A stretch of DNA of 28,308 nucleotides from the IMG/VR virus record IMGVR_UViG_3300045988_152359, one strand, 5' to 3'. The position numbers and the translations under genes were made by a program. Source of the DNA: a virus. Its lineage: Duplodnaviria > Heunggongvirae > Uroviricota > Caudoviricetes. Below the pieces are notes generated by a model that did no database searches, had not been told where the DNA came from, and saw only the letters and a program-made list of their open reading frames with translations. Below are positions 95-28,308 of this stretch, piece after piece (position 1 is the stretch's first letter; every line of letters starts with the position of its first letter).

Positions 95-1177
95 TTAGAA
101 CTGGTAAACCATACCTACAGCAACGATATCATCGGTAGCAACGCCAGATGCTTTCGTGAAATCGCTCTTATCAATCAGGTTGATTTTGTAATCAACAAAA
201 GTGGACATATTTTTGTTGAAGTAATAGGTTGCACCTACATCAATATATTCAACCAGGTCCTGATCACCCCACGCACCCAAGTCTTTTCCTTTAGATTGCA
301 GGTAAGCAACGGACGGACGCAGACCGAAGTCGAACTGATATTGTGCAACTACTTCGAAGTTTTGTGCTTTGTTGGCAATATGGTTATTACCAAAAACAGT
401 CATGTTCTGGGTTTCAGAATAGGTGGTAGCCAGATAGATGTTGTTCGCATCATATTTCAGACCAGCTGCCCATACTTCAGCATTTTGACCAGATGCATTC
501 AGGCTGTTGTTACCGTAGATAACCTGATTATTAGTGCGGTCAGATTTAGCATAGGTTGCACCTACACCGAATCCTTCATACTCATAAGTAGTGGAGAAAC
601 CGAAACCATCACCATTAGCTTCAGTTACGTCAGTGCGGTCATTTTTACCCTGATACTGAGCAGCAAAGTTCAGACCATCAACCAGACCAAAGAAGTCGTT
701 GTTACGATAGGTTGCAACACCAGTGGTACGACCAGTCATGAACACATCTGTTTGGGTCCAGGTATCGCCACCGAATTCTGGCAGAACGTCAGTCCACGCA
801 CCGATGTCGTATGCTACACCGTAGTTACGGCCGTAATCGATTGAGCCGTAGTCACCGAATTTCAGGCCTGCAAATGCAAGACGGGTTTTGTCTTTGGAGG
901 AACCTTGAGATTCAGCGCGGTTGCCTTTGAATTCATATTCCCACTGACCGAAACCAGTCAGCTGATCGTTGATTTGGGTTTCACCTTTGAAGCCAAGACG
1001 GGCATAAGTAGTATCACCATCATCTGCATCATTAGAGGAGAAGTAGTGCTTAGCATTAACTTTCCCGTACAGATCCAGCTTGTTACTGTCTTTATTATAA
1101 ATTTCAGCTGCCTGAGCAGACATCGCCATCAGTACTGATGCAGCTACAGCAGAAATTGCCACTGTTAATTTTTTCAT
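95..1177 (-). CDS. nmpC: Outer-membrane general porin, OmpC/OmpF/PhoE superfamily (prophage-encoded NmpC/Lc-like)
   Basis: 360-aa ORF with signal peptide [25 protein letters not shown], porin N-terminal motif [13 protein letters not shown] and C-terminal aromatic end VGMVYQF. Lies immediately upstream of the lysis cassette on the opposite strand, as nmpC does in DLP12. Symbol by analogy, not verified. Confidence 0.85.
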
Positions 1178-21786: not shown

Positions 21787-22230
21787 ATGAACTCAGTATT
21801 CTTTTCACCCGGAAGTAAAAGTTTTTATCTGCAGGAATTGTTTCCAGAATATGAGGATGCGGGAACGCTTCCTGATGATGTTATTGAAATTACAAGAGAA
21901 ACATATGAGCAATTTCTTGGGCTGCATCCAGAAGGGAAAGAAATTGGCGCTGACAGTTCAGGACGGCCAGTATGGATTAATTCCCCACCCCCTTCAAAAG
22001 AGGATGAGGTGTTGACGGCTGAAATGAAAAAAATATCTTTGGTTTCTGAAGTCAATACCTACATCAATACTCATCAGTGGCCTGGCAAAGCGGCGATTGG
22101 TCGTCTGAAAAGTGAGGAACTGGCGCAATATAATTTGTGGCTGGATTATCTGGACGCACTGGAACTGGTTGATACCTCCAGTGCGCCAGATATTGAATGG
22201 CCTACGCCTCCGGCAGTTCAGGCCAGATGA
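21787..22230 (+). CDS. Tail fibre assembly protein (Tfa), currently expressed orientation
   Basis: 147 aa directly after the tail fibre gene, inside the invertible segment. Confidence 0.8.
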   Translation: MNSVFFSPGSKSFYLQELFPEYEDAGTLPDDVIEITRETYEQFLGLHPEGKEIGADSSGRPVWINSPPPSKEDEVLTAEMKKISLVSEVNTYINTHQWPGKAAIGRLKSEELAQYNLWLDYLDALELVDTSSAPDIEWPTPPAVQAR

Positions 22231-22804
22231 CATCCGGCGCGGTGCTGGTATCTGTTGCCGTCACCGCGTCAATGTAATCCAGCACAGCGTTAAGTCGGGT
22301 GTTTTCTGTCTGCGTCAGCTTCCGCCCGGCCTGTAATTTCAGTTGAATCAGACTGATGGAAGCCATTGCAGCATCAATCAGCGACTGGCGCTGTGCTTCT
22401 GCCGCTTCTACTGCGGCGCTATGCTGTGCCTCAGTATCGGTCACCCATTTCTCACCATCCCATTTATCGTATGGCGTTAACGGTGCGAGAGTGGTTGTAT
22501 TTTCGGGATAGTCGCCTGGTGCTGTGATTTCTTTAGCATCTCCCGTTTCGGTGTTATAGACAATTTCACCGCGATGGTCTGGCACATATTCCCATGAGTT
22601 AAAATCTGCAGAACGGCAGATTGCATAACCAGTTTTGTATGAGCCAGGAGCATCTAAACAGGAACATGCCGGAATGCCGACACCCACAGCAAGATATTCA
22701 GTTGATGTGAAAATATATTCCCGTGTTTCACCATCATAGTTATAAACCGTAATATTTCCTGCCTGGGTGGCGATAAATTCGTTATTTAATACATCGTAAT
22801 CCAT
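22202..22804 (-). CDS. Alternative tail fibre assembly protein (Tfa'), silent orientation
   Basis: 200 aa on the opposite strand, convergent with and slightly overlapping the plus-strand tfa; paired with the alternative fibre C-terminus. Confidence 0.8.
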   Translation of the reverse strand: MDYDVLNNEFIATQAGNITVYNYDGETREYIFTSTEYLAVGVGIPACSCLDAPGSYKTGYAICRSADFNSWEYVPDHRGEIVYNTETGDAKEITAPGDYPENTTTLAPLTPYDKWDGEKWVTDTEAQHSAAVEAAEAQRQSLIDAAMASISLIQLKLQAGRKLTQTENTRLNAVLDYIDAVTATDTSTAPDVIWPELPEA

Positions 22805-23304
22805 TATGCAGCCCTCACGATATAATTAAAGGCAATGTTACGAGGACGGTTTTCGTTTGCAGTTGGAACAACTCTGGAAGCATCAAATGTTACTCGCTTT
22901 GCATAACCACCTTTAATTGAATCAGATGAAGTATCTCCGATGACGCTGGTTGTAAAAACGCCAGAGTCAGAAGGATAGGTATTAAACCTGACATCTACTA
23001 ATGCACCAATTATATTTCGAATGGTATCTCCCTGTGACGAAAGCAAGCTACGGTTAGTATCAATCCCTCTTCCATCATCCCAGCCACGAATAAACTCACC
23101 GCGTAAATCAGGCAATTTATTTGTCGGGTAAACCTTTGCCAGTTCCGGGTATTCTTCAGCAGAAAAAGCCGCTCCGTTGCATTTCAGCCAGCCTGTTGGC
23201 GGAGTGGCGGAAGGCCACGGAACAGGCACGCCAACGGGTAATGCCGAACCTTCTCCCAAACCAACGTTTATGAAAATGCAGAAATAACGAGCAGATGACA
23301 TCAT
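22804..23304 (-). CDS. Alternative tail fibre C-terminal segment (promoter-less; fused to the constant part after inversion)
   Basis: Contains the tail-fibre motif LPDLRGEFIRGWDDGRG and the in-frame site-encoded VGLGEGS; the reading frame matches the constant part across the crossover site. The part beyond 23264 lies outside the invertible segment. Confidence 0.75.
   Translation of the reverse strand: MMSSARYFCIFINVGLGEGSALPVGVPVPWPSATPPTGWLKCNGAAFSAEEYPELAKVYPTNKLPDLRGEFIRGWDDGRGIDTNRSLLSSQGDTIRNIIGALVDVRFNTYPSDSGVFTTSVIGDTSSDSIKGGYAKRVTFDASRVVPTANENRPRNIAFNYIVRAA
23251..23276. repeat. Right recombination (crossover) site of the Pin-type invertible segment
   Basis: TTCTCCCAAACC-AA-CGTTTATGAAAA; central dinucleotide AA is the complement of TT at the left site; about 55 bp upstream of the invertase start. 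Confidence 0.75.
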
Positions 23305-23330
23305 TCCTGCTTTTGTCAGGGAGATCTACC

Positions 23331-23885
23331 ATGCTTATTGGCTATGTACGTGTGTCAACAAATGACCAGAACACAGATCTACAACGTAATGCGCTGAACT
23401 GTGCAGGATGCGAGCTGATTTTTGAAGACAAGATAAGCGGTACAAAGTCCGAAAGGCCGGGACTGAAAAAACTGCTCAGGACATTATCGGCAGGTGACAC
23501 TCTGGTTGTCTGGAAGCTGGATCGGCTGGGGCGTAGTATGCGGCATCTGGTCATTCTGGTTGAGGAGTTGCGCGAACGTGGCGTTAATTTTCGCAGCCTG
23601 ACGGATGCTATTGATACCAGCACACCGATGGGGCGTTTTTTCTTTCATGTGATGGGGGCCCTGGCTGAAATGGAACGAGAACTGATTGTTGAACGAACAA
23701 AAGCTGGACTGGAGGCTGCTCGCGCACAGGGACGAATTGGTGGACGTCGTCCCAAACTTACACCAGAACAATGGGCGCAGGCCGGGCGATTAATTGCATC
23801 AGGCGTTCCTCGCCAGAAGGTGGCGATCATCTATGATGTTGGTATATCGACACTGTATAAGAAGTTTCCGGTCGGAGATAAATGA
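23331..23885 (+). CDS. pin: Serine DNA invertase (Pin/Gin/Cin/Hin family)
   Basis: 184 aa from ATG 23331: MLIGYVRVSTNDQNTDLQ... (catalytic Ser in VRVSTNDQ) and C-terminal HTH GRRPKLTPEQWAQAGRLIASGVPRQKVAIIYDVGISTLYKKF; the ORF-track start at 23295 is an extension. Confidence 0.95.
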   Translation: MLIGYVRVSTNDQNTDLQRNALNCAGCELIFEDKISGTKSERPGLKKLLRTLSAGDTLVVWKLDRLGRSMRHLVILVEELRERGVNFRSLTDAIDTSTPMGRFFFHVMGALAEMERELIVERTKAGLEAARAQGRIGGRRPKLTPEQWAQAGRLIASGVPRQKVAIIYDVGISTLYKKFPVGDK

Positions 23886-23942
23886 AACCGTAGCACGTCG
23901 TATGCAAGATCGTGCTGCGGTTTATGCTTATCACTTAAAGAC

Positions 23943-24812
<870 letters not shown>

Positions 24813-24891
24813 CTAAGCCTTTGAATTTACAAGTACAAAAAAGATACTTTTCCTCATAATGTGAATTAATTTTATGTTTCGTTTGATGATT

Positions 24892-24957
24892 GGACCGGTC
24901 TCGAAAACCGGAGTAGGGGCAACTCTACCGGGGGGGCAAATCCCCCTCTCTCCGCCA
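24892..24957 (+). pseudogene. 3' two-thirds of tRNA-Ser(CGA), 66 nt - probable prophage attachment-site remnant
   Basis: GGACCGGTCTCGAAAACCGGAGTAGGGGCAACTCTACCGGGGGGGCAAATCCCCCTCTCTCCGCCA: anticodon loop with CGA, long class-II variable arm, T-arm, acceptor 3' strand and CCA. No 5' acceptor strand or D-arm upstream. T-loop reads GGCAAAT instead of canonical TTCAAAT. Confidence 0.8.
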
Positions 24958-25540
24958 CTTTATCAATGACTTATCTCCCGACTTCCCGCCTTGCTTTTCC
25001 TAAACAGAACAATCGTAGAATATTCTTGAAGGGTTAGATCGTCACTGTTTTCTGTTCGATACTGTGACATTCAGCACTTGATTCGCTATGGATCTGACAG
25101 GAAGGTTTCGAGCGAAAATCTGCAGTTATTCAGTCGTTTTCTTATCGGTCACCATTATTCTTTTAGACATTGATCCTACAAAGCTGCCGCAAAGTTGGTG
25201 GTGGGAACTGAAGTTGCGTAGAGAAGGGGTCAATACCCGGAGGCAAACATGGGCTGGCAAAAGTGTAGCGGTATTAGGCGCAGCTATTTAGCCTAGTTAT
25301 GTTTTATGAAAACTTGATATCATATAAGTGTCTTACTTATTGGCTGTAAATAAGGTTTTCTAAGGAATTGTTTCTTTAGTATCATTTGTAACTGTAACGG
25401 AATTTATAATCCTTTACTTTATTTTTACGGTATTTTTTATCACACCCTATTTTTTATGTGGTTTTTTATACTGAAGTTTGGCAAAGTGAACTTTATATGC
25501 ATATACTTCATCCTGGTTTCAGTTAAATTGGGTGGATGAT

Positions 25541-26284
25541 ATGGCAACTACATGTTCAGTTATATTGATTTTGGAGTCCTTTGATGTTTATTTCGGAAAA
25601 GAGAGTGTGTTTCTGGATAGAGGTTTATCTGTACTTGTCGACTCTAGCTATAGAGATTTTTTCCTGACATATCCTGAAAGAGTGATAGTGGCGGATTTTG
25701 GCGCTGAGTTTATTAGTCGCTATTTGAAAGCTAATAACTTAAGGGATATTTCTGATTGTAGGGAATATCCATCTTATTTAAAAATAAACTTTGCTGACTT
25801 CAGTTTAATTAAAGGATTAATTAGTTGGGCTAATCACTGTGCTGAATATATAGAAATTTTTGATGAGTCTATTGCTTTTACATGTCTCTCTGCATTTTCT
25901 TCTGAAAAACAATTTGGAGTATTTCTGTTTGGATGTTTGAAAAGCACAGGGGCTAAAGTTAAAACGATTATTCATACGGATTTATCTGCACCATGGCATC
26001 TTAAGGATATATCATCAAGATTATATCTCAGCGAAAGTTTACTAAAGAGGAAATTGAAAGAAGAGGGGGTATCATTCAGTAAGATCATACTTGATGAGAG
26101 GATGCAAATGGCTGAATATTTACTCAGCACTCGTTGTTATCCTATTAGTAAAGTAGCTAAGGTCTGTGGTTATGCCAGTGTCTCATACTTTACTTATGTA
26201 TTTAGACGTTATTTTGGTGTTTCTCCAAGTCAATACTCTCAGAGGAGTTCAGAAAGTAAAATTCTTACTCACCAGGGAATCTAA
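25541..26284 (+). CDS. AraC/XylS-family transcriptional regulator (AppY/YdeO/GadX-like), AT-rich
   Basis: About 247 aa; C-terminal double-HTH WHLKDISSRLYLSESLLKRKLKEEGVSFSKIILDERMQMAEYLL...VAKVCGYASVSYFTYVFRRYFGVSPSQY; visibly AT-rich with a long AT-rich leader. Start taken as ATG 25541 (the track uses GTG 25532). Confidence 0.85.
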   Translation: MATTCSVILILESFDVYFGKESVFLDRGLSVLVDSSYRDFFLTYPERVIVADFGAEFISRYLKANNLRDISDCREYPSYLKINFADFSLIKGLISWANHCAEYIEIFDESIAFTCLSAFSSEKQFGVFLFGCLKSTGAKVKTIIHTDLSAPWHLKDISSRLYLSESLLKRKLKEEGVSFSKIILDERMQMAEYLLSTRCYPISKVAKVCGYASVSYFTYVFRRYFGVSPSQYSQRSSESKILTHQGI

Positions 26285-26290
26285 TCATTG

Positions 26291-26553
26291 TTCTTGCCCC
26301 CTTATTTCCAGACAGGGGGTGTATCTTAAGTTAACGTTACCCGCTGACGTCGATATTCTCGCGGAGAGCGATAACCCAACGCACTGTGCGGATGGTTTTC
26401 ATTGTAATGTTCGATCGCCACTGCAAGATTATGCAATGCCGTTCTTATATTCGGTTTCGGCATGAACGCGATGTAGTCTTCCTTCATCGTTTTCACGAAC
26501 CTTTCTGCCATTCCATTACTCTGAGGACTGCTGATTACCCATGAGGAGTACAA
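26291..26553 (-). mobile_element. IS2-like (IS3-family) insertion sequence remnant: terminal repeat plus 3' end of the transposase gene, truncated
   Basis: Terminal sequence TTGCCCCCTTATTTCCAGACA at 26294-26314 resembles the IS2 inverted repeat; minus-strand ORF 26326..26553 encodes the transposase C-terminus; similarity ends abruptly near 26553. Confidence 0.65.
26326..26553 (-). pseudogene. IS3-family transposase (OrfB/InsD-like), C-terminal fragment
   Basis: 75-aa ORF ...[56 protein letters not shown]...; lacks the upstream catalytic (DDE) region. Confidence 0.7.
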
Positions 26554-26773
26554 TTAAACGGGTTAATCAGTTTCTCCATTTGAAAGAAAAAAGACTTCTG
26601 TACTGTTTGATATCACCGCTATTTTCTTATTTTCTGTGCAGGTCGTAGTGGGACAAAACTGAGACACATAAGGCCTCACAATGGCTTGCAAGGCTTTACA
26701 TGTTTTGATGTGGTGGGACGTGTGAGCGCAGTGTTGATGGGGTAATACTTTGAATTAGAAGCGGATTCTTATG

Positions 26774-26819
26774 ATTCGTAATGCGAAGGTCGTAGGTTCG
26801 ACTCCTATTATCGGCACCA
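26774..26819 (+). pseudogene. 3' 46 nt of tRNA-Thr(CGU) - second attachment-site remnant
   Basis: ATTCGTAATGCGAAGGTCGTAGGTTCGACTCCTATTATCGGCACCA: anticodon loop (CGT) through T-arm, acceptor 3' strand and CCA; no 5' half upstream. Confidence 0.75.
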
Positions 26820-27426
26820 TCAAGAAAATCAATAACTTAGCTTAACTTCTCTAAGAAATTGTATCTTCTGTTATCACTTACAAACGCCTATACGTTGTTA
26901 TGGGCTTTGGTAGTGTAACACGTATGGGCGAGTAGTTCCCAGGCTCAACCTCGTAACAAGTTCCTTTGAAGCTGGAAGACGTGCCACCGTCTCTAAACCT
27001 TCTACCAAAACTCTTAGCAAGATGTTCCACACCTGGCGCGGTGTCCAATGATGCTACACGTCGAGATGACGTCGCAGAGGATAAACAGGCTAAATGATGG
27101 GAAGAGTTTTAAGTGCAATAGTGGATTAAAGCCCACCTCTTCAAAACCTAACTTGATCGGGAAAGAATCAAGCTCTAGCACGGTTTCGTCCACCGGAGTA
27201 CAACGGGTGCCTGATAAGAGAAGAACTGCTAAGACTTCATAGCTTTTGTGAAAAAGCCCTTTTTAGTGGATATGCCTACGGCGCTTATTTTTTGGTATAA
27301 CCATCAAAGGCGCTTTATGGCTCCTATTGTCTTGAAAATGTATCTTTACTTGTATTGTGTTTTATGCGTAGTCTCCCTGTGTAGTATGTAACTTGTTAAT
27401 TTTCATATGAATACAGAGGCAACACG

Positions 27427-27537
27427 ATGAAAAACATTGCAGCTATAAAACGTAATAACCGCAAGATTCACGCTCGTAAGTTCCTGTCTACGCCAGAGGG
27501 AAAAGCCTGTCTACGCCAGAGGGAAAAGCCTGGCTAG
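27427..27537 (+). CDS. Small ORF (35 aa as read) disrupted by a 23-bp tandem duplication; inferred ancestral product about 50 aa, basic
   Basis: GAGG RBS 7 nt before ATG 27427; MKNIAAIKRNNRKIHARKFLSTPEGKA...; removing one repeat copy restores ...WLERKQRENEERKLLSELKWLKD, ending at 27602; an imperfect long hairpin and a T-tract follow. Confidence 0.4.
   Translation: MKNIAAIKRNNRKIHARKFLSTPEGKACLRQREKPG
27484..27529 (+). repeat. Perfect 23-bp direct tandem duplication (2 copies)
   Basis: CTGTCTACGCCAGAGGGAAAAGC at 27484-27506 and again at 27507-27529. Confidence 0.95.
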
Positions 27538-27885
27538 AGCGTAAACAGCGAGAGAACGAAGAAAGAAAACTCCTTAGTGAGTTGAAATGGCTTAAGGATT
27601 GAATCACCAGTAGGCGCATAACACATCCAGCAATCAAAGATGTGTTTGTGCGCCTGATAGTGAAATTATTAAAGTTTTTTAGTTAATGTAGCCATTGCAT
27701 GAACGATGATCGCTAGTGAATCGATTTTATCTCGAGGGGTAAAATAGATGAGGTATATGATGGTAACAATTACAGCTAAAGTAATTGTGGTTCTGCAGGT
27801 TTTTAAAATGGATAAGATAAAGCGCATAGATACCCCCTATTGATTTAACAACAACAAGGTATCATTTATTTTTTATTGCATGCAA

Positions 27886-27907
27886 TGTGCAAATTTTCAC
27901 ATATAAT
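27886..27907 (+). promoter_or_regulatory. CRP-like site (TGTGC-N6-TCACA) abutting a consensus -10 hexamer (TATAAT)
   Basis: TGTGCAAATTTTCACA at 27886-27901, then TATAAT at 27902-27907; no obvious downstream gene on the plus strand. Confidence 0.25.
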
Positions 27908-28152
27908 AGCTTACTATTCACTTTGCATGGTGTCAACAAGATGATGTGTTGTTTTGTTTGATTTGTTCAAGATAATATTTCATTTTCTCATCTGTATAAC
28001 TTGTGTTTTAGATAATTTCACTAATTGTAAAAGTTACGTATTGCTTAATAGCTGCCTTTTTATCTGAAATCGGCGCAAACGTGATCAATGTTTAACGCGA
28101 AGATCAGCGGCGTCAGGTCCACGCAGCGACAATTCTCAAATATCAGGAGGAA

Positions 28153-28308
28153 TTACGCTTCCTGCTCTTTCTTGATACGTTGCACCGTCTGTGTGCTGAC
28201 ACTGAAATCTTTTGCTACGCTCCGAATTGATCCACCATTCGCGAGAGCGGCAACAATTCCCGCTCGATCAATTGCTTTTCCATTACCACGTTTTGCTATA
28301 CGTCCAGC
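28153..28308 (-). CDS. Serine recombinase (resolvase/invertase family), C-terminal HTH end; partial - the gene continues beyond the window
   Basis: 52 in-frame codons to a TAA at 28153-28155: ...GRIAKRGNGKAIDRAGIVAALANGGSIRSVAKDFSVSTQTVQRIKKEQEA, matching the G-R-x-x-K plus HTH pattern of resolvase C-terminal domains. Confidence 0.5.
   Translation of the reverse strand, partial: AGRIAKRGNGKAIDRAGIVAALANGGSIRSVAKDFSVSTQTVQRIKKEQEA

What the first reader, a model, noticed from the sequence alone, without database searches (positions are those of the whole stretch)
24958..26284. AT-rich orphan AraC-family regulator (AppY/YdeO-like) stranded between two att remnants
A regulator of about 247 aa with a classic AraC double-HTH C-terminus and an N-terminus resembling the AppY/YdeO/GadX group. 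Its base composition is far more AT-rich than the prophage structural genes, and it has a ~580-bp AT-rich leader typical of H-NS-silenced horizontally acquired regulators. DLP12 carries appY at a comparable position after its tail-fibre genes, so prophage-end regulators of this family recur; the regulon of this one is unknown.
Basis: partly seen in the sequence, partly recalled or inferred. Interest (0 to 1): 0.4.

Follow-up and report, generated by a model that had tools for sequence, protein, structure and literature searches.

The report
PatE acid-resistance regulator on a prophage
The gene is real and intact, but it is an ordinary copy of PatE, a prophage-borne AraC-type regulator already shown in E. 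coli O157:H7 to switch on acid-resistance genes, so its regulon is not unknown.

Summary
An intact 247-aa AraC-family ORF lies at 25541-26284 (+). It is the most AT-rich stretch of the window (34% GC against 56% for the structural genes). It sits between a 66-nt serU tRNA 3' fragment (24892-24957) and a 46-nt thrW tRNA 3' fragment (26774-26819).

The protein is 243/247 identical to the only AraC-family protein of prophage CP-933H/Sp1 in E. coli O157:H7 EDL933 and Sakai, and it sits in the same gene order. That protein is PatE (z0321, O-island 8). It is published as a stationary-phase, RpoS-dependent activator of gadE, gadBC and hdeAB that also lowers LEE expression.

The gene occurs in 658 of 5426 complete E. 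coli genomes and was annotated intact in every full-length hit listed.

The "580-bp leader" is a mosaic: 278 bp of chromosomal DNA from beside serU, the end of an IS630-family element, then about 243 bp of 28% GC DNA. The whole 1.64-kb cassette recurs at about 98.5% identity in viable lambdoid phages and in prophages at att-lambda.

Verdict: already known, low interest.

The parts
24892..24957 (+). Fossil att core: 3' part (nt 25-90) of tRNA-Ser serU. The T-loop is mutated in this window only (GGGCAAATC instead of GTTCAAATC). It is not a functional tRNA.
   Evidence: 97% identity over 66 nt to K-12 serU. Alignment with K-12, Sakai and phage ev099. ARAGORN finds no tRNA in the window. Rfam gives only sub-threshold hits.
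24958..25235 (+). 278 bp of E. coli chromosomal DNA that normally follows serU directly, towards yodB.
   Evidence: Matches 5405 of 5426 complete genomes at about 97%, at an unannotated site. In K-12 the match starts at the base after serU. Alignment.
25236..25297 (+). Terminal scrap of an IS630-family element: the last about 34 nt of the transposase CDS plus the right end. It marks the deletion junction with the serU flank. The right limit at 25297 is read from the sequence.
   Evidence: 55-bp match at 92.9% (H65). The match spans the 3' end of an IS630-family transposase CDS and 22 nt beyond it.
25298..25540 (+). patE upstream region, 28% GC. It holds a promoter-like TTGGCA-18-TATACT at 25478-25507 and a GGTGGA ribosome-binding motif just before the ATG.
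   Evidence: Composition and sequence. Consensus scan; this is a motif match only, and no transcription start is known here.
25541..26284 (+). patE: a 247-aa AraC/XylS-family activator. Residues about 1-140 form the companion domain and 141-247 the double-HTH DNA-binding domain. The allele is D26/L29/Y37/H153.
26289..26553 (-). IS3-family remnant (ISEc48/IS2-like), the 3' part of the transposase with the rve_3 domain. The shared cassette ends inside it at 26539.
   Evidence: Pfam rve_3 E 8.6e-17 and NCBIfam IS2 TnpB. Sakai annotates 'ISEc48 partial' at the corresponding place. Cassette limits.
26649..26773 (+). Phage att arm of the thrW-integrating type, similar to the attP regions of SfII, SfV, SfI and SfIV.
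   Evidence: 95-97% matches to the attP/int regions of those phages. 98% match to the Sakai Sp1/Sp2 boundary.
26774..26819 (+). thrW 3' 46 nt. This is the current attR core of this prophage and the left boundary of the next island.
   Evidence: 100% identity to thrW nt 31-76. tRNA-Thr hits. It corresponds to the Sp1/Sp2 boundary in Sakai.

Best explanation
The ORF at 25541-26284 is an orthologue of PatE, the prophage-encoded AraC/XylS activator of E. coli O157:H7.

How it most likely works: it is transcribed from its own AT-rich upstream region, mainly in stationary phase and dependent on RpoS. Its C-terminal double helix-turn-helix domain binds AT-rich DNA upstream of host promoters in the acid-fitness island. 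The published target region is -132 to -45 of hdeA. This raises hdeAB, gadE and, through GadE, gadBC, which improves survival at pH 2.5 or below. In LEE-positive strains it also lowers type III secretion gene expression indirectly.

It is cargo in the 'b region' of the prophage, between the tail-fibre/invertase genes and attR, and acts on the host rather than on the phage.

Shown here: the identity, the domain architecture, the genomic context and the distribution. Taken from the literature on the EDL933 allele: the regulon, the hdeA region, RpoS dependence and the acid phenotype. Inferred: that this allele, which differs at 4 residues, behaves the same, and that the TATACT motif is its promoter.
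For: - The protein is 243/247 identical to Sakai ECs_0287. That protein equals the EDL933 and OK1 protein WP_000246059.1.
- It is the only AraC-family CDS in the thrW prophage CP-933H/Sp1.
- The gene order is the same: tail fibre, pinE, GIY-YIG gene, AraC gene, IS3 scrap, thrW repeat.
- PatE is z0321 on O-island 8. It activates gadB, gadC, gadE and hdeAB through an hdeA cis-element at -132 to -45, and represses six LEE genes (review PMC10877973).
- Z0321, described as 'putative regulator (prophage CP-933H)', is 6-fold RpoS-dependent and highly expressed (PMC2907692).
- ECs0287 rises at entry into stationary phase (PMC2241611).
- The DNA-binding domain matches the solved GadX domain 3mkl at E 4.5e-24. 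The model aligns to it at TM 0.9 and 42% identity.
- The gene is annotated intact in every full-length hit listed from the 658 carrier genomes. The exact protein was seen on 1000 or more contigs.
Against: - No experiment bears on this allele. It differs from the studied one at E26D, S29L, S37Y and R153H, with 4 non-synonymous against 2 synonymous codon changes.
- The primary papers (Bender 2012, Yang 2015) were not available, so the functional statements rest on reviews and on two transcriptome papers.
- The z0321 to ECs_0287 mapping is inferred. It rests on position and on this being the only AraC gene in the prophage, not on a locus-tag table.
- The promoter motif is only a consensus match, in a region where the scan found fewer such sites than in shuffled sequence.
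Confidence: 0.88

Rival explanations
1. It is an allelic variant with a shifted function. The four substitutions, three of them clustered in the first beta-strands of the N-terminal domain, change effector sensing, dimerisation or the target set, so its regulon differs from that of EDL933 PatE.
For: D26/L29/Y37/H153 is specific to the window allele. EDL933, two free phages and two att-lambda prophage copies all carry E26/S29/S37/R153. There are 4 non-synonymous against 2 synonymous changes. This allele is the commoner one in databases, on 1000 or more contigs against 132.
Against: Identity is 98%. The DNA-binding domain differs only at residue 153. That position varies among functional relatives: H in AppY and P0008, K in YdeO, Y in GadW. 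The counts are too small to show selection.
Confidence: 0.07
2. It is silent xenogeneic cargo. The gene is kept off by H-NS in this host and contributes nothing under normal conditions, which is the reader's H-NS idea taken to its limit.
For: The CDS is 34% GC and the upstream 250 bp are 28% GC, the composition H-NS prefers according to established knowledge. The gene is flanked by IS scraps, so it is not in a native transcriptional context.
Against: In EDL933 the transcript is abundant in stationary phase (log2 12.4) and RpoS-dependent. It is induced at stationary entry in Sakai. A patE-null mutant shows lower acid-resistance gene expression. The ORF is kept intact in nearly all 658 carrier genomes and in viable phages. 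H-NS binding itself was not testable here.
Confidence: 0.08
3. It is a phage-directed regulator. It controls neighbouring prophage genes, such as the PD-T4-3 defence gene, the pin invertase or lysogeny functions, rather than host genes.
For: It lies next to a divergently placed GIY-YIG/PD-T4-3 gene in this prophage type.
Against: The same 1.64-kb cassette occurs in lambdoid phages and att-lambda prophages that lack those neighbours. Its partners are therefore not conserved. The published targets are host genes.
Confidence: 0.03

Closest known systems
PatE (z0321 / ECs_0287 / WP_000246059.1), prophage CP-933H = Sp1, E. coli O157:H7
   Same: 243/247 residues and the same length. Same position at the right end of a thrW prophage, after pinE and the GIY-YIG gene and before the IS3 scrap and the thrW repeat. 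Same upstream cassette, including the serU fragment.
   Different: Four substitutions (D26E, L29S, Y37S, H153R, written window to EDL933). Here the prophage still has its lysis, head and contractile-tail genes, whereas Sp1/CP-933H is a 10.6-kb remnant. The element after the thrW repeat also differs.
YdeO (E. coli K-12, EvgA-controlled activator of gadE)
   Same: It is the best NCBIfam model, aligned over residues 4-238. Size and two-domain layout are the same, and the N-terminal CSVI(L/F)I motif is shared. Both feed into the gadE/hdeAB circuit (the YdeO part is established knowledge).
   Different: Only 34% identity, 25% in the N-terminal domain. The score of 146.7 is below the YdeO cut-off of 348. 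YdeO is chromosomal, beside safA, not prophage-borne.
GadW / GadX (acid-fitness island regulators)
   Same: The DNA-binding domains are 41-46% identical. The solved GadX domain is the nearest structure, at E 4.5e-24.
   Different: 32% (GadW) and 26% (GadX) overall identity. The GadX model score of 110.6 is below its cut-off of 500.
AppY (DLP12 cryptic prophage, K-12)
   Same: Both are prophage-borne AraC regulators placed after tail-fibre remnants near the right prophage end. AppY also raises acid resistance (PMC10057817).
   Different: 27.5% identity, 17% in the N-terminal domain. AppY groups with GadW in the neighbour-joining tree, not with PatE. Its flanking sequences are different.
Other phage-borne PatE-like proteins (phrog_1450), and PsrA/PsrB of O157:H7
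   Same: There are full-length relatives at 80-83% (P0007, P0008) and at 46-54% (P0011-P0021). The 51% group sits between Q and the holin gene in lambdoid phages. A 35% relative lies just upstream of the tRNAs and stx2k. PsrB is reported to bind the same hdeA region as PatE.
   Different: They occupy different slots in the phage genome, and their functions are untested. I could not retrieve PsrA or PsrB sequences, so their identity to PatE was not measured.
Rns / CsvR / ToxT (fatty-acid-responsive virulence AraC regulators)
   Same: They are the closest full-length solved structures by sequence (E about 1e-15) and by Foldseek (E about 1e-10). Size and layout, a beta-rich N-terminal domain plus a double HTH, are the same.
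   Different: About 20% identity and TM only 0.40, because the N-terminal half of the model is unreliable (pLDDT 31-70). No evidence for a fatty-acid pocket.

Membership tests
AraC/XylS family | C-terminal domain of about 100 aa with two helix-turn-helix motifs | tested here: met
   Pfam HTH_18 at 58.4 bits (cut-off 33.6) and HTH_AraC at 60.2 bits (cut-off 26.6) with two stretches. GadX DNA-binding domain 3mkl at E 4.5e-24. The model of this domain has pLDDT 87-95 and TM 0.9 to 3mkl.
AraC/XylS family | N-terminal companion (sensing or dimerisation) domain | tested here: inconclusive
   140 residues are present and predicted beta-rich. pLDDT is only 31-72 there. Full-length Foldseek hits to Rns, CsvR and ToxT have TM 0.40.
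PatE orthologue group | Near-identity to the EDL933 protein characterised by Bender et al. 2012 | tested here: met
   243/247 identical. The EDL933, Sakai and OK1 proteins are identical to each other.
PatE orthologue group | Same genomic context (CP-933H/Sp1 right end at thrW) | tested here: met
   97.4% nucleotide identity over window 23250-26539 to Sakai and OK1, with the thrW repeat following. Gene tables.
PatE orthologue group | Binds the hdeA promoter, activates gadE, gadBC and hdeAB, and raises acid survival | not testable with these tools
   Reported for EDL933 only, via review PMC10877973.
PatE orthologue group | Stationary-phase, RpoS-dependent expression | not testable with these tools
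   Literature for EDL933 and Sakai. Here there is only a TTGGCA-18-TATACT motif at 25478-25507.
YdeO (NCBIfam NF007407 equivalog) | Score at or above the curated cut-off of 348 bits | tested here: not met
   146.7 bits and 34% identity.
GadX (NCBIfam NF007432 equivalog) | Score at or above the curated cut-off of 500 bits | tested here: not met
   110.6 bits, and only residues 105-242 align.
H-NS-silenced xenogeneic gene | GC content well below that of the host genome | tested here: met
   34.4% GC in the CDS and 28.4% upstream, against 50.9% for the window.
H-NS-silenced xenogeneic gene | H-NS occupancy and derepression in an hns mutant | not testable with these tools
   No data retrieved. Published expression data argue against complete silencing.

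The most novel reading that the evidence does not exclude
The 1.64-kb patE cassette (window 24896-26539) may be a relic of specialised transduction. On this reading, a phage once integrated at serU excised aberrantly. It took with it the attR core, at least 278 bp of adjacent chromosome and, after an IS630-mediated deletion, the patE gene. The unit has since passed by recombination among unrelated temperate-phage backbones: the thrW prophage with a contractile tail seen here, lambdoid phages such as ev099, mEp332 and PhiR70_1, and att-lambda prophages. PatE would then have been a chromosomal or island-borne regulator captured by a phage, not an ordinary phage moron.

Capture of the host serU flank is essentially shown. 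That patE was captured in the same event is speculation.
Probability: 0.3. Interest if true: 0.3.

Novelty: already known. Interest (0 to 1): 0.12.

Why it matters
This closes the finding. The regulator has a name, a published regulon and a phenotype, so it should not be carried forward as an orphan of unknown function.

Modest added value:
- patE is not specific to O157. It occurs in about 12% of complete E. coli genomes.
- It travels as a fixed 1.64-kb cassette that includes captured serU-flanking host DNA.
- The cassette is present in phages that still form plaques or were isolated as virions. Acid-resistance tuning by PatE is therefore horizontally transmissible among E. coli today.

Tried and rejected
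- The primary papers (Bender 2012, PMC3416394; Yang 2015, PMC4288888) are not held. I relied on reviews and two transcriptome papers.
- NC_002655, the EDL933 record with Z locus tags, is not in the collection. I used the re-sequenced EDL933 record instead.
- Source names for the protein cluster give only 'AraC family transcriptional regulator', never PatE.
- The AlphaFold model from a 13-sequence alignment has mean pLDDT 67 and an unreliable N-terminal half. Nothing can be said about a ligand pocket. The Foldseek full-length hits (TM 0.40) are only a family-level indication.
- A search for a native chromosomal home of patE in one genome per species found nothing with the single protein. With the family alignment it found only YdeO-level (35%) and 51% relatives in Escherichia/Shigella and in contaminated bins.
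- I guessed that psrA lies in Sakai Sp6. No AraC gene is annotated there, so the PsrA/PsrB comparison was abandoned.
- Rfam on 24700-26900 gave only sub-threshold hits caused by the tRNA-Ser fragment.
- The 'PatE (CIW80_12240)' overexpressed in E. coli Nissle (bioRxiv 10.1101/2025.08.01.668021) is described there as a homologue. Nissle matched only the 278-bp serU flank of my query (H54). It is therefore not this gene, and I did not use it as evidence.
- I first took the ORF at 95-1177 (-) for the prophage integrase. It is an nmpC-like porin gene.

Full report
**1. What is in the sequence**

The region holds one substantial ORF, from 25532 (GTG) or 25541 (ATG) to 26284 on the + strand. RefSeq annotates the 247-aa ATG form in near-identical loci. 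A GGTGGA ribosome-binding motif precedes that ATG.

Pfam finds the two-HTH AraC DNA-binding domain: HTH_AraC E 1.9e-16 with two stretches, and HTH_18 E 8.7e-16 over residues 161-238. The best NCBIfam model is YdeO, aligned over almost the whole protein. It scores 146.7 bits, far below the cut-off of 348. GadX comes next at 110.6 bits against a cut-off of 500.

The CDS is 34.4% GC, with GC3 at 26.7%. The 250 bp upstream are 28.4% GC. The prophage structural genes are 55.7% GC. The lowest-GC 744-bp stretch of the whole window starts at about 25301.

**2. The two att remnants**

- Window 24892-24957 matches nt 25-90 of tRNA-Ser serU at 97%. Two T-loop bases are changed in this window only.
- Window 26774-26819 matches nt 31-76 of tRNA-Thr thrW at 100%.
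- ARAGORN finds no intact tRNA.
- The thrW fragment, together with the preceding arm that matches the attP regions of SfII, SfV and SfI, is the working attR of this thrW-type prophage. It corresponds to the Sp1/Sp2 boundary in Sakai.
- The serU fragment is a fossil, discussed in section 5.

**3. Identity**

The DNA of the finding is present at 99.8-99.9% in many E. coli chromosomes and at 98.8% in O157:H7.

In O157:H7 strains OK1, Sakai and EDL933 the orthologue lies in the defective prophage next to thrW (Sp1 = CP-933H). The gene order there is tail fibre, tfa, pinE, GIY-YIG gene, AraC gene, IS3 scrap, then the P4-like element Sp2. It is the only AraC-family CDS in that prophage.

The three O157 proteins are identical to each other. 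They differ from the window protein at four positions: 26, 29, 37 and 153.

The literature identifies this gene:
- PatE is encoded by z0321 on O-island 8 of EDL933. It is an AraC/XylS regulator.
- It activates gadB, gadC, gadE and hdeAB, acting at -132 to -45 of the hdeA promoter.
- It negatively affects six LEE genes (review PMC10877973, citing Bender et al. 2012).
- An independent microarray study lists Z0321 as 'putative regulator (prophage CP-933H), O-island 8'. It is 6-fold RpoS-dependent and highly expressed.
- ECs0287 is induced at entry into stationary phase in Sakai.
- The AppY paper names PatE and PsrB as prophage AraC regulators of the AR2 system.

The step from z0321 to WP_000246059.1 is an inference. 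It rests on position and on uniqueness within the prophage. I could not open a record with Z locus tags or the primary paper. I consider the step safe.

**4. Relatives**

| Relative | Identity to the window protein | Source |
|---|---|---|
| YdeO | 34% | |
| GadW | 32% | |
| AppY | 27.5% | |
| GadX | 26% | |
| EnvY | 26% | |
| YbcM | 20% | |

The N-terminal domains are much more divergent (10-25%) than the DNA-binding domains (33-46%).

Closer relatives are all unnamed and, where their context was examined, phage-borne:
- 80-83% identity: P0007 and P0008.
- 46-54% identity: P0011-P0021.
- 35% identity: a gene in phage phiSTEC1575-Stx2k.

The 51% group lies between Q and the holin gene of lambdoid phages. 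The 35% relative sits just upstream of the tRNAs and stx2k. PHROGs puts PatE in phrog_1450, which has no assigned function.

In a simple neighbour-joining tree PatE groups with these phage proteins. YdeO, GadW and AppY lie outside that group.

By sequence the nearest solved structures are the GadX DNA-binding domain, then full-length CsvR, Rns and ToxT. An AlphaFold model was confident only for the DNA-binding domain. Nothing can be said about a ligand pocket.

**5. The 'leader' and the cassette**

The 583 bp between the serU fragment and the ATG is a mosaic.

- 24958-25235 (278 bp) is DNA that directly follows serU in 5405 of 5426 complete E. coli genomes. In K-12 the match starts at the base after the tRNA.
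- 25236 to about 25297 is the right end of an IS630-family element.
- Only the last roughly 243 bp are the very AT-rich DNA that belongs with patE.
- The single promoter-like site, TTGGCA-18-TATACT at 25478-25507, would give a short 5' UTR. It is unverified.

The block 24896-26539 comprises the serU fragment, the flank, the IS630 end, patE and the IS3 scrap. It recurs as a unit at 98.4-98.7% identity in three isolated lambdoid phages: ev099, mEp332 and PhiR70_1. There it lies between tail-fibre assembly and int, in the lambda 'b region'. It also recurs in defective lambdoid prophages at att-lambda beside ybhB and bioA.

A tRNA 3' core followed without a break by that tRNA's chromosomal flank is what an attR junction looks like. 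Its presence inside phage genomes means host DNA was captured, most simply by aberrant excision from serU. Whether patE came along in that event cannot be decided. No native serU-linked patE relative was found.

**6. Distribution and integrity**

The patE CDS is present in 658 of 5426 complete E. coli genomes, and 654 hold at least 80% of it. It was annotated as an intact regulator in every full-length hit of an evenly spaced listing. The exact window protein was seen on 1000 or more contigs. A minority read-through form of 308 aa exists (P0006). The pseudogene criterion is not met.

**7. Mechanism and rivals**

The best-supported account is that this is PatE working as published. It would be a stationary-phase, RpoS-dependent activator that binds AT-rich DNA upstream of hdeA and raises the gadE-controlled glutamate-dependent acid-resistance system. 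It acts on the host, not the phage. Confidence is 0.88.

Three rivals remain:
- An allele with altered properties, suggested by the four substitutions, three of which cluster at residues 26-37.
- A silenced passenger gene. Published expression and mutant data contradict this.
- A regulator of neighbouring phage genes. The cassette's changing neighbours contradict this.

H-NS involvement is plausible from composition but untested.

**8. Verdict**

The gene is already known and interest is low. The cassette structure and its presence in viable phages are the only modest additions.

Noticed in passing
window 24892-25235: A serU tRNA 3' fragment is followed without a break by 278 bp of the chromosomal DNA that flanks serU in nearly all E. 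coli. This is an attR-type junction embedded in a prophage integrated at thrW. The same junction lies inside the viable phages ev099, mEp332 and PhiR70_1. It looks like a relic of aberrant excision (specialised transduction).
   Followed up: partly
window 23943-24767 (-): The GIY-YIG (LEM-3-like) ORF next to patE matches the PADLOC anti-phage defence model PD-T4-3 over its full length (E 2.7e-140) and phrog_5356. It is conserved in O157 Sp1/CP-933H (ECs_0285). The prophage right end therefore carries a defence gene beside the acid-resistance regulator.
   Followed up: partly
L007 and L008 (att-lambda, ybhB-bioA side); L005 and L006 (phages mEp332 and ev099): The patE cassette sits at a second chromosomal site, att-lambda, at the end of DLP12-like defective prophages (nohD, truncated terminase/tail, tfa, patE). 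In L007 an IS1 has replaced its left part. In free lambdoid phages it sits in the b region next to int.
   Followed up: yes
L012:4992-5732 (Lambda_2G7a); L013:5001-5714 (phiSTEC1575-Stx2k): PatE paralogues occupy other phage cargo (moron) slots. A 51% relative lies between Q and the holin gene of lambdoid phages; at 85% nucleotide identity or more it is present in 699 of 5426 E. coli genomes. A 35% relative lies directly upstream of the tRNA genes and stx2k. None has a tested function in the sources seen.
   Followed up: partly
window 25541-26284, residues 26, 29, 37, 153: The window allele (D26, L29, Y37, H153) differs from EDL933, two free phages and two att-lambda copies, which all share E26, S29, S37 and R153. 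There are four non-synonymous against two synonymous codon differences from EDL933.
   Followed up: partly
window 95-1177 (-): The 360-aa ORF at the left edge is an nmpC-like porin gene, about 90% identical in DNA to the DLP12 nmpC region. It is not an integrase. The window therefore starts in the late (Q-lysis) region of the prophage.
   Followed up: partly
window 22202-23885: A pinE invertase gene (23295-23885) sits beside oppositely oriented tail-fibre and tail-fibre-assembly ORFs (22202-23304, - strand). This is the layout of an invertible host-range segment. Part of this region aligns inverted relative to the NADC1036 and O157 copies.
   Followed up: no
window 26840-28308: The DNA after the thrW repeat is not the P4-like element found in O157 and NADC1036. 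Only 1 of 5426 genomes (strain 08-00022) covers at least 80% of 26285-28308, annotated there as recombinase, hypothetical protein and GNAT acetyltransferase. No ORF longer than 64 aa lies in the window's own stretch 26840-28308. The junction is rare.
   Followed up: no
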